A stretch of DNA of 64,000 nt, taken from positions 1,364,001-1,428,000 of the forward strand of contig NW_025963990.1 of assembly GCF_023055435.1 (NCBI RefSeq). The letters run 5' to 3'. The DNA comes from Haliotis rufescens. Taxonomy: Eukaryota. Below are positions 1,545-59,413 of this stretch, in pieces. Made by a program: the position numbers and the translations under genes. The notes beneath the pieces were generated by a model. The model searched no databases, was not told the DNA's origin, and saw only the letters and a program-made list of their open reading frames with translations. The first letter of the stretch is position 1. Every line of letters starts with the position of its first letter.

Positions 1545-1977
1545 GTGGTTGTTTACACTATATGTCATGTGTACTCACAGTTTGATGGTGTGGTGAGGGA
1601 GTTGATCATACATTCCAGAGTCCCCATATCATATCAGTAAGTTATAAGAATGGCATGTGTACTCACAGTTGGATGGCGTGATGAGGGAGTTGATCATATG
1701 TTCCCGAGTCCCCACATTATATCAGTAAGCTATAGGAATGTCATGTGTACTCACAGTTTGATGGCGTGGTGAGGGAGTTGATCATATGTTCCCGAGTCCC
1801 CACATTAGATCAGTAAGTTATATGAATGGCATGTGTACTCACAGTTGGATGGCGTGGTGAGGGAGTTGACCATATGTTCCCGAGTCCCCACATTATATCA
1901 GTAAGTTATAAGAATGGCATGTTTTACTCACAGTTGGATGGCGTGGTGAGGGAGTTGATCATATGTTCCCGAGTCCC
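1545..1977. repeat. 88-bp minisatellite (5 copies) made of the exon-30 3' end plus donor site
   Basis: actcacag at 1573, 1661, 1749, 1837, 1926. Confidence 0.9.
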
Positions 1978-2070
1978 CTCTGCCCTCATCCCCCTCTCCG
2001 TCAGCTCCGTCCTCAGTTGGTCGTCCGTCATCTGGTACGGGTTGAAACACGGCTTGTTGTCGATCAACTC
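1932..2070 (-). CDS. Exon 30 with SAP-like motif
   Basis: [28 protein letters not shown] fits the SAP pattern LTxxQLRxELxxRGLxxxGxKxxLIxRL. Confidence 0.65.
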
Positions 2071-59000: not shown

Positions 59001-59413
59001 ATAAATGAACTGACGGAAACAATTAGCATTCACACTGGCCTGGGGACGACTATTCTGCTTCATCTCAACAAACCGACATCCAGTGTATTTCATGCGTCAT
59101 TACTGCAAAAGAATACCCGGTGATGCACGGGTAGATCTAAATCTAACGTCAATCATTTCCTTTAGGCCTATTCGCTTATGTTTTCCCATTGGTATATTTT
59201 GATTATGAATACGCGGAATTAGAAAAATTAACAATATGGAAATAAACAACTCACCTTGGCTAACACTTGAAAATCTCCAATGTTTTTCACATTTGCATTC
59301 GAATCATACTCGTACTGGTACTCAAACCCCGGTTCAAAGTTAATGAAACTTGAAGAAGCACATGTCAGTAAAACAACTATTCCACAAATTGCCGGAAAAT
59401 GATTTCCCGGCAT
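1932..59413 (-). CDS. Large multi-exon gene (3' end outside window): secreted vitellogenin-N/LLT-domain protein fused to an M23/LECT2-like peptidase domain and a SAP-like motif
   Basis: Hand-spliced exons (minus strand, 5' to 3'): 59255-59413, 44065-44155, 41555-41588, 40970-41102, 38548-38608, 37634-37746, 36908-36993, 36107-36165, 35417-35538, 34675-34765, 34367-34475, 33498-33672, 32438-32627, 31508-31716, 28110-28234, 26272-26483, 25723-25868, 19616-19792, 15723-15881, 14988-15130, 14810-14880, 13755-13921, 12965-13131, 12418-12601, 11122-11259, 4578-4757, 4191-4338, 2777-2857, 2234-2382, 1932-2070. All introns are GT-AG with matching phases and one open frame (about 4018 nt). Domain names come from motif recognition, not a database search. 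Confidence 0.88.
3110..3640 (-). mobile_element. Penelope-like RT fragment
   Basis: Minus strand reads [21 protein letters not shown] and [11 protein letters not shown]. Confidence 0.65.
4578..12601 (-). CDS. Exons 24-26: peptidase M23/LECT2-like domain
   Basis: GCSGSGSY...EHKGIDV (HxxxD), [24 protein letters not shown] (HxH), IDPTRYL: the M23/LECT2 motifs in the correct order. Confidence 0.85.
4850..6330 (+). mobile_element. R4/Dong-like non-LTR retrotransposon 3' fragment (restriction-like endonuclease), interrupted at about 5075-5340
   Basis: RHDGV...KPDLILFDK...IIELSVP...K..Y..L REL motif; ends in (TAA)n; homologous to 59780-61270. Confidence 0.8.
7400..8760 (-). mobile_element. CR1/L2-like LINE relic
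   Basis: QFDFRK...[15 protein letters not shown]...GIRGK...[14 protein letters not shown] motifs; many stops. Confidence 0.75.
9405..9665 (-). mobile_element. SINE (family with ...ggaatattgctgagtgtggcgttaaa(caaa)n tail)
   Basis: Same family at about 43700-43870, 49150-49290, 54950-55170 and 61667-61890 (+ strand). Confidence 0.75.
11685..11920. repeat. About 21-bp tandem repeat (aacttattatcttgaaatttc) with inverted copies, foldback-like
   Basis: KFQDNKL repeats in the ORF track; ttgaaatttcaa palindromic core. Confidence 0.65.
14400..14750 (-). mobile_element. Highly degenerate Tc1-like fragment
   Basis: Remnants ERRRIIGM...[11 protein letters not shown] and WP..SPDLNT(LEH). Confidence 0.45.
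16847..18356 (+). mobile_element. Mariner transposon, defective, interrupted by a SINE
   Basis: TIRs caagggctagctgaaaagttctaagcct / aggcttagagcttttcagccagccctcg with TA flanks; [27 protein letters not shown]. Confidence 0.92.
17695..17894 (-). mobile_element. tRNA-derived SINE with (ACTC)n tail inserted in the mariner
   Basis: A/B-box head on the minus strand; 13-bp TSD tatcaatggaaga at 17682-17694 and 17895-17907; same family at 36627-36725 and 61323-61478. Confidence 0.85.
20410..20878 (+). repeat. Left terminal inverted repeat, with an extra block of CCAAGATGG(CG) repeats
   Basis: 20410-20540 and 20795-20878 are the reverse complement of 24411-24610; the roughly 260 bp between them is absent on the right. 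Confidence 0.85.
20894..21205 (-). CDS. Cys/His-rich orphan protein (103 aa) inside the Polinton-like element
   Basis: Intact [14 protein letters not shown]...; its ATG lies just downstream of the left copy of the mirrored CCAAT/TATA promoter; no family recognised. Confidence 0.5.
   Translation of the reverse strand: MQTNEENWDLDLVSVAHPLTLCKDCRWDLEHIPPWQCNKYKGCLPVYAHGTREHDGTFQCIYWNTVLKDTYVRRLCHTSKCPVRRQVAGHPCLCRTAPLWEKK
21222..21420 (-). promoter_or_regulatory. Inverted copy of the same promoter cassette, left copy
   Basis: Reverse complement of 23515-23718 (ORF-track peptides at 21287+ and 23652- are near identical); TATA position reads tgtaaaa. Confidence 0.6.
21585..21982 (+). pseudogene. 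Homolog of the N-terminal (non-catalytic) region of Polinton protein-primed PolB, frameshifted near the 5' end
   Basis: [11 protein letters not shown]...[37 protein letters not shown]...VTSVHV resembles, from memory, the motif upstream of the exonuclease domain in animal Maverick pPolB; preceded by CCAAT boxes, TATAAAT (21524) and ATG 21585. Confidence 0.65.
22761..23211 (+). pseudogene. C2H2 zinc finger + BIR (IAP-like) domain protein, frameshifted
   Basis: [22 protein letters not shown] (C2H2) in one frame; [37 protein letters not shown] (BIR Cx2C...W...D.PW.EH...C) in the overlapping frame. Confidence 0.75.
23515..23718 (+). promoter_or_regulatory. Pol II promoter cassette (2x CCAAT, TATAAAA), right copy
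   Basis: gaaccaatc twice, then ctataaaac about 35-45 bp before the ATG; inverted copy at 21222-21420. Confidence 0.65.
23727..24281 (+). CDS. Four-CCHC zinc-knuckle protein with basic NLS-like and acidic tail (about 184 aa)
   Basis: [42 protein letters not shown] and [14 protein letters not shown] are all CX2CX4HX4[23 protein letters not shown] at 23715 or 23727 follows TATAAAA (23681). Confidence 0.75.
   Translation: MSSRHSCMKCQTDSHSYLYCPEVTCTECHTQGHRHYVCPRISSQDKQKTPQGPCQNCQVVGHFAADCPESSRKKTSQGPCYNCQVVGHFTADCPEPSRKKTSAAPSMSTPVTPVTQVIQVLHLIEVMHIDVRALKECIAHLHAGITPRLGKRKRDRSPSRKHPSKRQRRHQSEEEEEMEDEGDR
24411..24610 (-). repeat. Right terminal inverted repeat
   Basis: Reverse complement of the left end; ends in ACTACT. 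Confidence 0.85.
26500..27935 (+). mobile_element. Tc1-like transposon, defective
   Basis: TIRs cacatgctcaaaagtt / aacttttgtgcatgtg with TA flanks; ORFs 26763-27317 and 27333-27638 ([25 protein letters not shown]). Confidence 0.9.
28110..44155 (-). CDS. Exons 2-15: LLT beta-barrel and alpha-helical domain
   Basis: [36 protein letters not shown] (LLT 'NIKRG'-like segment), [34 protein letters not shown] (vitellogenin 'ALGNAG'), DEEVRYEAL. Confidence 0.8.
28207..30330. repeat. About 60-bp minisatellite (about 35 copies) made of the exon-15 acceptor plus exon start
   Basis: Unit gtcttcaacatcagatgtgctgcctgcaacaggggatatatcat...; 475-bp higher-order repeat (28465 vs 28940). Confidence 0.9.
32955..33540. 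repeat. About 78-bp minisatellite (about 7 copies) made of the exon-12 3' end plus donor site
   Basis: Unit cacttacgtctatcggtggtccatcaagtgagatgatgtggaacatgag... Confidence 0.88.
37255..37520 (+). mobile_element. tRNA-derived SINE, longer family
   Basis: gtgggttcgaatcccggttc B-box and aaacccaactcact tail; copies at about 51778-52060, 56120-56400 and 62955-63165. Confidence 0.75.
38090..38520. repeat. Degenerate C-rich tandem repeat (about 110 bp)
   Basis: acccatccacggcatcc...atgccagatacccaacccatc recurs at about 38133 and 38242. Confidence 0.6.
41728..42920. repeat. 39-bp minisatellite with a 117-bp (3-mer) higher-order period
   Basis: cagcaacaaa(c/g)tgaatc(a/g)ttcggcttcccctttca variants cycling in threes. 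Confidence 0.88.
43010..44060. repeat. (AGT/AGC)n microsatellite tracts
   Basis: 43010-43390 and 43940-44060. Confidence 0.9.
44783..45407 (-). mobile_element. CR1/L2-like LINE 3' end
   Basis: [10 protein letters not shown]...ERTCTLC...[17 protein letters not shown] plus (TTCTG)n tail; absent at the paralogous site near 57690. Confidence 0.8.
45552..47462. repeat. (GTAGGT/GTAGAT)n hexamer repeat containing two assembly gaps
   Basis: Direct reading; shorter paralogous tracts at 53290-53435 and 57836-58078. Confidence 0.95.
48602..48760 (-). pseudogene. Duplicated exon 1, inactivated
   Basis: 159-bp copy of exon 1 with in-frame TAA (EYQYK*DPN); ATG and donor retained. Confidence 0.85.
49647..51177 (+). 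mobile_element. Tc1-like transposon, frameshifted
   Basis: TIRs cactcacgtgcaaaagaaacgtc / gacgtttcttttgcacgtgag; TA duplication confirmed by the empty site (ttgtaatattagcc) in the paralogous segments; FGDESRF, SPIEHLW. Confidence 0.92.
54381..54539 (-). pseudogene. Duplicated exon 1, inactivated
   Basis: 159-bp copy of exon 1 with intact ATG and gtgag donor, but in-frame TGA (NI*D) and a TAG as last codon. Confidence 0.85.
59255..59413 (-). CDS. Intact coding exon 1: signal peptide and start of LLT/vitellogenin-N domain
   Basis: [53 protein letters not shown]|gtgag: hydrophobic leader followed by the FEPGxEYxYxY start typical of vitellogenin/apolipophorin/MTP N-termini. Confidence 0.85.

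What the first reader, a model, noticed from the sequence alone, without database searches (positions are those of the whole stretch)
1932..59413. Secreted lipid-transfer (vitellogenin-N) protein fused to an M23/LECT2 Zn-peptidase domain and a SAP-like motif
Seen: one continuous spliced frame joins signal peptide, LLT module, RHKR|GFF, a long amphipathic helical region, a full M23 motif set and a SAP-like motif. Established: classical LLT proteins (vitellogenin, apolipophorin, apoB, MTP) do not carry M23 domains; M23 enzymes are mostly bacterial peptidoglycan hydrolases and LECT2 is the small animal member; SAP is normally a nuclear DNA-binding motif. Inference: a poorly characterised large haemolymph or egg protein that may couple lipid carriage with bacterial cell-wall recognition, processed by furin into two chains.
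Basis: partly seen in the sequence, partly recalled or inferred. Interest (0 to 1): 0.8.

Follow-up and report, generated by a model that had tools for sequence, protein, structure and literature searches.

The report
Giant mollusc vitellogenin-like protein with LECT2-domain
This is the front end of a real but unstudied gene, shared by snails and clams, for a giant secreted protein that joins part of a yolk/lipoprotein-type fat-carrying module to a probably non-cutting copy of a bacterial cell-wall enzyme domain.

Summary
Architecture confirmed; interpretation partly corrected. A minus-strand gene (29 exons, 59413 to 1932, 28 of 28 introns GT-AG) gives a stop-free 1326-aa frame: signal peptide, vitellogenin-type N-sheet and helical domain, RHKR|GFF, short sheet, ~290 aa amphipathic helices, M23 fold, SAP-like motif. 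It aligns end to end with uncharacterised mollusc proteins (Haliotis asinina, 48%); 24 of 34 homologue records with the helical domain also carry M23. The gene runs off the window: relatives reach over 5,300 aa with up to 27 Cys-rich repeats. Corrections: (1) the M23 set is not full: no auxiliary catalytic His, and the first Zn-ligand His is in only 5 of 28 homologues, so a LECT2-like binding module is likelier than a hydrolase; (2) the lipid-transfer module seems to lack the A-sheet that closes the pocket in MTP, so lipid carriage is inferred; (3) the SAP-like motif is extracellular and not basic. Ten paper searches found no description. An undescribed branch of a known superfamily; function untested.

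The parts
59255..59413 (-). Exon 1 (aa 1-53): ATG, signal-peptide-like N-terminus, first N-sheet strands; the only intact one of three tandem copies
   Evidence: a hydrophobic N-terminal stretch in 17 of 18 homologues reaching this region
54381..54539 (-). Duplicate of exon 1 with in-frame stops (TGA, TAG); not part of the model
48602..48760 (-). Duplicate of exon 1 with an in-frame TAA; not part of the model
44065..44155 (-). Exon 2 (aa 54-83), N-sheet
   Evidence: 16/30 identical to P0049
41555..41588 (-). Exon 3 (aa 84-94), N-sheet
   Evidence: 8/11 identical to P0049, no tblastn hit alone
40970..41102 (-). Exon 4 (aa 95-139), N-sheet and central helix
   Evidence: 34/45 identical to P0049; hit by 27 homologues
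38548..38608 (-). Exon 5 (aa 140-159)
   Evidence: 9/20 identical to P0049
37634..37746 (-). Exon 6 (aa 160-197)
   Evidence: 29/38 identical to P0049
36908..36993 (-). Exon 7 (aa 198-225)
   Evidence: 15/28
36107..36165 (-). Exon 8 (aa 226-245)
   Evidence: 9/20; supplies the needed phase change
35417..35538 (-). Exon 9 (aa 246-286), end of N-sheet
   Evidence: 20/40
34675..34765 (-). Exon 10 (aa 287-316), start of helical domain; C309 conserved in 32 of 32
34367..34475 (-). Exon 11 (aa 317-352); C324 conserved in 31 of 31
33498..33672 (-). Exon 12 (aa 353-411), helical domain
   Evidence: 29/59
32438..32627 (-). Exon 13 (aa 412-474), helical domain
   Evidence: 36/63
31508..31716 (-). Exon 14 (aa 475-544), most conserved HEAT-like helices; the query that found the family
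   Evidence: 45 hits, best 7e-24; 43/70
28110..28234 (-). Exon 15 (aa 545-585), end of helical domain
   Evidence: 29/41
26272..26483 (-). Exon 16 (aa 586-656): linker, furin site, first C-sheet strands
26402..26413 (-). RHKR (aa 610-613), predicted furin/proprotein-convertase site before GFFDEK
   Evidence: RX[KR]R at this place in 24 of 30 homologues; cleavage inferred
25723..25868 (-). Exon 17 (aa 657-705), rest of the short amphipathic sheet (C-sheet equivalent)
   Evidence: beta-moment z=4.2 vs 300 shuffles; about 5 strands in the homologue model
19616..19792 (-). Exon 18 (aa 706-764), amphipathic helical region
   Evidence: alpha-moment z=8.0 for aa 706-995, 0 of 300 shuffles reach it
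15723..15881 (-). Exon 19 (aa 765-817), amphipathic helices
   Evidence: 26/53 to P0002 and P0057; missing from the P0049 record
14988..15130 (-). Exon 20 (aa 818-864)
   Evidence: 23/46
13755..13953 (-). Exon 21 (aa 865-931); acceptor position least certain
   Evidence: 25/63; homologues are longer here
12965..13131 (-). Exon 22 (aa 932-986), last amphipathic helix
   Evidence: 21/55
12418..12601 (-). Exon 23 (aa 987-1048), M23 N-part with H1036xxxD1040 (12456-12442)
11122..11259 (-). Exon 24 (aa 1049-1094), M23 middle; N1084 (11154-11152) lies 30 residues before HxH, where active enzymes carry the auxiliary His
   Evidence: PMC9662197 passage
4578..4757 (-). Exon 25 (aa 1095-1154), M23 C-part with H1114xH1116 (4700-4692)
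   Evidence: Pfam PF01551 E=0.0038; 38/60
4191..4338 (-). Exon 26 (aa 1155-1203), end of M23 extension and linker
   Evidence: 19/48 to P0002
2777..2857 (-). Exon 27 (aa 1204-1230), linker; weakly supported, can be skipped in frame
   Evidence: 8/27 to P0002, no tblastn hit
2234..2382 (-). Exon 28 (aa 1231-1280), helical segment
   Evidence: 27/50
1932..2070 (-). Exon 29 (aa 1281-1326), conserved C1288 and SAP-like motif (2031-1951); ends at a GT donor, gene continues outside the window
   Evidence: Pfam SAP E=1.7e-4; 28/46; no next exon or repeat found in the window

Best explanation
The window holds the 5' part of a vertically inherited mollusc gene for a giant secreted protein, a divergent branch of the large lipid transfer protein (LLTP) superfamily. 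Most likely working model: (1, inferred from sequence) it enters the secretory path and is cut by a furin-type convertase after RHKR613. (2, inferred from LLTP structure) The ~590-aa N-chain stays clamped non-covalently on the short sheet that starts the C-chain. (3, inferred) Lacking the A-sheet of MTP and vitellogenin, it binds lipid or a hydrophobic surface with that half-sheet plus ~290 aa of apolipoprotein-like amphipathic helices. (4, inferred) The M23 domain is a LECT2-type pseudo-peptidase: it can probably hold Zn in this species but does not cut, and serves as a ligand-binding groove (peptide, protein or bacterial wall). (5, inferred) The SAP-like hairpin is a structural insert in the linkers of the first Cys-rich repeats, and a long bead-chain of ~190-aa repeats makes the molecule an extracellular scaffold. 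Shown: gene structure, domain order, family conservation, motif states. Not shown: expression, cleavage, lipid binding, ligand.
For: Colinearity with homologues. Pfam Vitellogenin_N is above the cut-off in 14 of 46 scanned proteins, M23 in 4 (more at lower scores), SAP in 10. 24 of 34 records with the helical domain also hold M23; the other 10 stop before it, 7 of them within 2 aa of one of the window's exon ends, as truncated predictions would. The AlphaFold model of homologue P0043 has the top 9 Foldseek rows all vitellogenin, MTP, lipovitellin or apoB (E 1.6e-9 to 5.3e-7). Its best structural alignment is MTP 6i7s (Z 15.3, rmsd 9.4, 359 aligned) and ends at MTP residue 723 of a C-terminal domain spanning 604-884. 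Helix amphipathicity z=8.0. The M23 model of P0060 matches LECT2 5b0h (Z 13.8, rmsd 2.4, 116 aligned), tied with LytM (Z 13.7); LECT2 is the best M23-fold hit of the family profile (E 0.0028). The review PMC9662197 (passages) describes an auxiliary His about 30 residues before HxH and says LECT2 lacks a catalytic His. The tree groups gastropods and bivalves separately. The SAP motif has net charge -2 here and <=0 in 17 of 23 homologues. Up to 27 repeats per record.
Against: Both folds are of homologues, not of the window's protein. P0043 is 28% identical and lacks part of the N-sheet and M23; the model has pLDDT 62, pTM 0.43, and the short sheet is mostly under 50, so 'no A-sheet' is a low-confidence structural reading, though the sequence leaves only ~90 aa between the furin site and the helices. 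The family profile found no LLTP in the PDB by sequence. Three MAFFT modes did not place the YxHL His of two phage M23 domains on N1084; the equivalence rests on spacing and on the SpoIIQ alignment. The review says only that the auxiliary His 'might participate', so its loss does not prove inactivity. This protein is one of the few with both Zn motifs intact. Amphipathic helices may simply form a soluble bundle. No expression or proteomic data were seen.
Confidence: 0.47

Rival explanations
1. The protein is a non-lipid extracellular scaffold (mucus, matrix or plasma). The vitellogenin-type head has lost lipid binding and serves for folding, oligomerisation or receptor binding; the helices form a soluble bundle; M23 is a binding module.
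For: No A-sheet, DUF1943 or VWD match in 46 scanned proteins. Most of the mass is Cys-rich repeats, some records with VWA, fn3 or PAN inserts. The helices are predicted as a four-helix bundle resembling generic bundles (Z 10-13).
Against: The amphipathic sheet (z=4.2) and helices (z=8.0) are retained and follow each other where LLTPs have their lipid-binding domain.
Confidence: 0.27
2. One reading: a lipid-carrying protein whose M23 domain is an active Zn peptidoglycan hydrolase that lyses bacteria.
For: HxxxD and HxH are intact here and in 5 of 28 homologues, spread over three separate clades (abalone, unionid mussels, oysters). The fold matches LytM and lysostaphin (Z 12.5-13.7). D1040 is kept in 26 of 28 and H1116 in 24 of 28.
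Against: There is no His between D1040 and H1114. The first Zn ligand is replaced by Y, S, F, V, N, D, W or R or is absent in most homologues, so metal catalysis is not what the family conserves.
Confidence: 0.12
3. An atypical vitellogenin (yolk precursor) made in females, cleaved by furin and taken up by oocytes.
For: Honey-bee vitellogenin is the top Foldseek row, tied in effect with MTP and lipovitellin; secreted; convertase site.
Against: No DUF1943 or VWD in any scanned homologue; M23, SAP and the repeat tail are foreign to vitellogenins; about 12% structural identity; molluscs have conventional vitellogenins (recalled, not tested here).
Confidence: 0.1
4. Two neighbouring genes mis-joined, or a decaying copy.
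For: Some annotations split the family gene (Solemya ScPMuIL_009387 holds the N-part, ScPMuIL_009390 starts inside M23). Exon 1 has two stop-bearing duplicates. No transcript was seen.
Against: 24 records from gastropods, bivalves and unnamed sources carry both parts in one chain. The introns across the helix-to-M23 junction are only 363-1034 bp. The frame is open over 1326 codons.
Confidence: 0.04

Closest known systems
LLTP superfamily: MTP large subunit (PDB 6i7s, 8eoj), vitellogenin/lipovitellin (9enr, 1lsh), apoB (9e9r); Pfam Vitellogenin_N PF01347
   Same: Signal peptide, N-terminal sheet, helical superhelix, then an amphipathic sheet; top 9 Foldseek rows; PF01347 above cut-off in 14 of 46 scanned proteins.
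   Different: The structural match to MTP ends near residue 707-723, before the A-sheet; ~290 aa of amphipathic helices follow instead; no DUF1943 or VWD; adds M23, SAP-like motifs and many Cys-rich repeats; about 12% identity.
LECT2 (PDB 5b0h), the degenerate animal M23-fold protein
   Same: M23 fold (Z 13.8, 24% identity in the structural alignment), HxxxD and HxH present, a catalytic His missing, secreted, conserved Cys.
   Different: LECT2 is a free 16-kDa protein (PMC9258709 passages); here the domain sits inside a giant chain and most homologues have also lost the first Zn ligand. Descent from a shared ancestor was not resolved (LytM ties on Z).
Bacterial M23 peptidases (LytM, lysostaphin) and degenerate LytM factors (EnvC, DipM, SpoIIQ)
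   Same: Same fold (Z 11-13.7). Like the degenerate factors it follows long helices and lacks catalytic residues.
   Different: Animal, intron-split, disulfide-type Cys; no relative among 38 pattern matches in prokaryotic genomes (one pattern only).
Apolipophorin-II/I and apoB-type lipoproteins
   Same: Large secreted LLTP with a convertase site and amphipathic helices downstream (features of these families recalled, not from a call).
   Different: The site here lies right after the helical domain, before the first C-sheet strand; no long amphipathic beta belt directly after the head; no VWD found.
Database entries named 'Vitellogenin domain-containing protein', 'SAP domain-containing protein' or 'uncharacterized protein LOC...' from molluscs
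   Same: The same family: 32-48% identity, same domain order.
   Different: Automatic names only. The closest record (H. asinina P0049) is 48% identical, so the window's gene is a distinct paralogue or from a more distant species.

Membership tests
LLTP superfamily | N-terminal beta-sheet/half-barrel plus helical superhelix (Vitellogenin_N) | tested here: met
   On colinear homologues: PF01347 above cut-off in 14 of 46; Foldseek top 9 rows are LLTPs. Not scanned on the spliced window protein itself.
LLTP superfamily | C-sheet lining the helical domain | tested here: inconclusive
   About 5 strands predicted at low confidence; amphipathic beta pattern z=4.2; MTP aligned up to residue 723.
LLTP superfamily | A-sheet closing the lipid pocket against the C-sheet (PMC6717300 passages) | tested here: inconclusive
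   Points to absent: long helices follow after ~90 aa in the model and by hydrophobic moment, and the MTP alignments stop at 707-723; but the model is of a 28%-identical homologue with pTM 0.43.
LLTP superfamily | Binds or transfers lipid | not testable with these tools
   Needs lipidomics or a transfer assay.
Vitellogenin / apolipophorin | DUF1943 and C-terminal VWD domains (recalled as defining) | tested here: not met
   No DUF1943 or VWD row in 46 scanned proteins up to 4591 aa; DUF1943 would lie inside the window's part. Three records over 5000 aa and the true C-terminus were not scanned.
Vitellogenin | Female-specific synthesis and uptake into oocytes | not testable with these tools
   No expression data.
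Active M23 peptidase | M23 fold | tested here: met
   Homologue model matches LytM Z 13.7, rmsd 2.4, 118 aligned; PF01551 hits.
Active M23 peptidase | H(x)nD and HxH Zn motifs | tested here: met
   H1036, D1040, H1114, H1116 in the window's protein; complete in only 5 of 28 homologues.
Active M23 peptidase | Auxiliary His about 30 residues before HxH (LytM His260) | tested here: not met
   No His between 1041 and 1113; N1084 at -30; column N/G/S in 27 of 28.
Active M23 peptidase | Hydrolytic activity | not testable with these tools
   Needs an assay.
LECT2 subfamily | Closer to LECT2 than to bacterial M23 | tested here: inconclusive
   Profile hit LECT2 E 0.0028 vs SpoIIQ E 0.1; structure Z 13.8 vs LytM 13.7, a tie; no tree with LECT2 was built.
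SAP domain | Sequence motif PF02037 | tested here: met
   Window exon E=1.7e-4, just under cut-off; above cut-off in 10 homologues; two helices in the model.
SAP domain | Nuclear, basic, DNA-binding | tested here: not met
   In a signal-peptide protein with no transmembrane segment (max KD19 1.71); net charge -2, <=0 in 17 of 23 homologues. DNA binding itself was not assayed.

The most novel reading that the evidence does not exclude
An unrecognised branch of animal lipoproteins: a protein of over 5,000 aa in which the vitellogenin head has swapped its A-sheet for apolipoprotein-like helices that wrap a lipid particle, while an embedded LECT2-type groove docks the particle on bacterial walls and a long repeat tail cross-links the catch. 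The M23 domain, released or exposed by convertase cuts, would represent the context from which free LECT2 arose.
Probability: 0.15. Interest if true: 0.82.

Novelty: new variant of a known kind. Interest (0 to 1): 0.58.

Why it matters
LLTP classification rests on MTP, apoB, apolipophorin and vitellogenin. A conserved mollusc family with a truncated LLT module, helices in place of the second sheet and an M23 fold would be a further branch, and it offers a test of how the lipid pocket can be rebuilt. A review calls LECT2 the only vertebrate M23 protein (PMC9258709); this family places the fold in a large invertebrate protein and shows the Zn ligand kept in some lineages and lost in others, a natural series for studying how a peptidase fold becomes a binding module. 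It is present in farmed oysters, mussels, scallops, clams and abalone, usually as fragmented 'uncharacterized' entries, so it may lie unnoticed in existing plasma, mucus and egg proteomes. The domain combination is already visible in automatic annotation, and no function is shown, which limits the score.

Tried and rejected
Pfam on single exons gave no Vitellogenin_N hit in 21 stretches. The word-index search with the M23 exon and PDB sequence searches with exons 25 and 23 found nothing. ESM Atlas: no usable hit for P0049 30-1160; for one repeat only unnamed mollusc clusters and a weak DUF4773 lead (0.77), not confirmed by Pfam. Fold searches gave no clear match for the Cys-rich repeat (best Z 5.4), but the M23 domain filled the lists and the repeat was not folded alone. 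Helix-bundle matches (Z 10-13, including tetraspan and pore-forming-toxin chains) were set aside as generic. A prokaryotic origin or contamination was rejected: intron structure, mollusc-like tree, no relative in genome contigs (weak), only weak phage M23 hits. MAFFT did not align the phage YxHL His with N1084. ORFs at 14715-14473 and 3269-3033 were considered as exons and dropped (no fitting phase, not needed for colinearity). The tree is the quick version; 6 of 38 rows were dropped for low coverage. Ten paper searches showed no title or abstract on this family; only listings were read for these, the library lacks most subscription papers, and supplements (proteome tables, where the family is most likely to appear) were not searched. 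The LECT2 structure paper PMC5016117 was not held. No complex was predicted.

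
Full report
Observation. The window is repeat-rich eukaryotic DNA of about 40% GC. On the minus strand I rebuilt a gene of 29 exons from ATG 59413 to a GT donor after 1932. All 28 introns are GT-AG, phases fit, and the 1326 codons hold no stop. Because I chose the exons by eye and trained the splice scores on them, I tested the model by homology. Exon 14 alone found 45 proteins among 1.84 billion representatives. The spliced model aligns in one piece with several of them and with later hits: H. 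asinina P0049 48% over 1343 columns, Batillaria P0002 42%, Potamilus P0019 37%. 25 of 29 exons are hit by tblastn from at least one homologue; exons 3, 5 and 8 are short but match in the alignment; exon 27 is weak and optional; the exon 21 acceptor is uncertain. The finding's coordinates and motifs are therefore real.

The family. All 34 named rows from two searches are gastropod or bivalve proteins with automatic names only. Six divergent records have no organism and fall outside the named mollusc clade in a midpoint-rooted quick tree; there the window's protein is sister to P0049 (support 100) within a gastropod group. At 48% identity it is a paralogue of that record or comes from a more distant species. 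Of 34 records with the helical domain, 24 also carry the M23 region; the other 10 end earlier, 7 within 2 residues of one of the window's exon ends, which suggests truncated predictions and shared intron positions. These records are gene predictions; I saw no transcript. The gene is much longer than the window shows: relatives reach 5305 aa, still partial, and carry up to 27 copies of a ~190-aa Cys-rich repeat after the SAP-like motif, sometimes with VWA, fn3 or PAN inserts. No repeat exon lies in the window.

The LLT module. Pfam Vitellogenin_N passes its cut-off in 14 of 46 scanned proteins; DUF1943 and VWD appear in none. The spliced window protein could not be scanned or folded, so I folded homologue P0043 (28% identical; pLDDT 62, pTM 0.43). 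It shows an N-terminal sheet, a helical superhelix, about five low-confidence strands, four long helices and an M23 domain. The top 9 Foldseek rows are vitellogenin, MTP, lipovitellin and apoB (E 1.6e-9 to 5.3e-7), with no preference among them. The best structural alignment, MTP 6i7s (Z 15.3, rmsd 9.4), ends at MTP residue 723. In MTP the C-terminal domain spans 604-884 and holds lipid between a six-strand C-sheet and a six-strand A-sheet, and the helical domain clamps both (PMC6717300, passages). In the window's protein only ~90 residues with a beta-amphipathic pattern (z=4.2) follow the helical domain, then 290 residues with a strong helical amphipathic pattern (z=8.0; 0 of 300 shuffles). 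I infer that the A-sheet is missing and helices take its place. This is the least expected feature, and it makes lipid carriage plausible but unproven.

Processing. RHKR610-613 lies between the helical domain and the first C-sheet strand. A strict RX[KR]R is found there in 24 of 30 homologues, a weaker basic site in 4, none in 2; the overall rate is 60 of 1241 windows. An N-terminal hydrophobic stretch is present in 17 of 18 homologues that reach the start, and there is no transmembrane segment. Secretion and cleavage are inferred.

The M23 domain. A model of P0060 residues from the M23 domain through the second repeat (pLDDT 69) matches LECT2 (Z 13.8, rmsd 2.4) and LytM (Z 13.7), a tie; LECT2 is the best M23-fold hit of the family profile (E 0.0028). 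The window's protein keeps H1036xxxD1040 and H1114xH1116. A review (PMC9662197, passages) describes a further His about 30 residues before HxH that may help activate water, notes that LECT2 lacks a catalytic His, and that degenerate M23 folds mostly serve protein-protein binding. The window's protein has no His between 1041 and 1113; N1084 sits at -30, and that column is N, G or S in 27 of 28 homologue rows. An alignment to SpoIIQ puts the Asn on the third letter of YQSL, which I recall as the YxHL position; MAFFT with two phage M23 domains did not reproduce this. The first Zn ligand is His in only 5 of 28 rows, in three separate clades. The family conserves the fold, the Asp, the HxH strand and Cys residues, but not a catalytic metal site. 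'Zn-peptidase' is therefore too strong; a LECT2-like binding module, Zn-loaded in this species, fits best. Activity is not excluded.

The SAP-like motif scores just under the Pfam cut-off here and above it in 10 homologues. It is neutral to acidic, follows a conserved Cys, and recurs in the linker before the second repeat. I read it as a structural hairpin, not a DNA-binding domain.

Mechanism and rivals. Best reading (0.47): a secreted, convertase-cut, lipoprotein-like scaffold with a non-cutting M23 groove. Rivals: a non-lipid scaffold (0.27), an active cell-wall hydrolase (0.12), an atypical vitellogenin (0.10), two genes or a decaying copy (0.04). The architecture itself I hold at about 0.95.

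Novelty. The domains are known and the combination is visible in automatic annotation, but ten searches of the open library (listings only) showed no paper on the family; subscription papers and supplementary tables were not seen. It works like an LLTP-derived protein and meets the N-terminal criteria of the superfamily. It should not be filed as vitellogenin, apolipophorin or an active M23 peptidase. Verdict: new variant of a known kind, interest 0.58.

Noticed in passing
window:20435-24598 (intron 17): A ~4.2-kb insert with ~100-nt inverted ends (93%), an inner inverted repeat (21233-21417 / 23522-23706, 91%) with CCAAT-type words, a zinc-knuckle ORF (23508-24278 +) and a BIR fragment (22933-23208 +). 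Near each end, pointing outwards, lies a histone 3' stem-loop followed by a purine-rich stretch (24414-24432 +, 20856-20874 -; Rfam Histone3 E 4.8e-7 for the first; chance mean 0.02). It may be a mobile element whose non-histone genes use histone-type 3' ends.
   Followed up: partly
window:47461-63364: A tandem duplication of the gene's 5' region (units about 5-6 kb apart, 81-96% identical) gives three copies of exon 1; only the most upstream is intact. Part of a further unit runs towards the window end, so another copy or the true promoter may lie outside.
   Followed up: partly
window:1562-1978, 28210-30213, 33017-33539: Three minisatellites are tandem copies of this gene's own splice junctions: 88 nt x 4.7 (exon 29 donor), 59 nt x 34 (exon 15 acceptor), 77 nt x 6.6 (exon 12 donor). 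They create many cryptic splice sites.
   Followed up: no
window:343-1088 (-), 17014-18282 (+), 26754-27635 (+): Broken Tc1/mariner-type transposase remnants; the mariner at 17014-18282 is interrupted by a short tRNA-like repeat (17717-17874) also found at 61322-61479.
   Followed up: no
window:5383-6344 and 60325-61303; 8415-8810 (-): Two copies (84% identical) of a non-LTR retroelement-like end, and a reverse-transcriptase fragment inside intron 24.
   Followed up: no
homologues P0019, P0055-P0075 (outside the window): The ~190-aa Cys-rich repeat (about nine strands plus a helical linker) has no Pfam family and no clear fold match; a weak ESM lead to DUF4773.
   Followed up: partly
window:45598-45727 and 46551-46785: Two assembly gaps (N runs) inside a GTGTAG microsatellite in intron 1; they do not touch any exon.
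   Followed up: no
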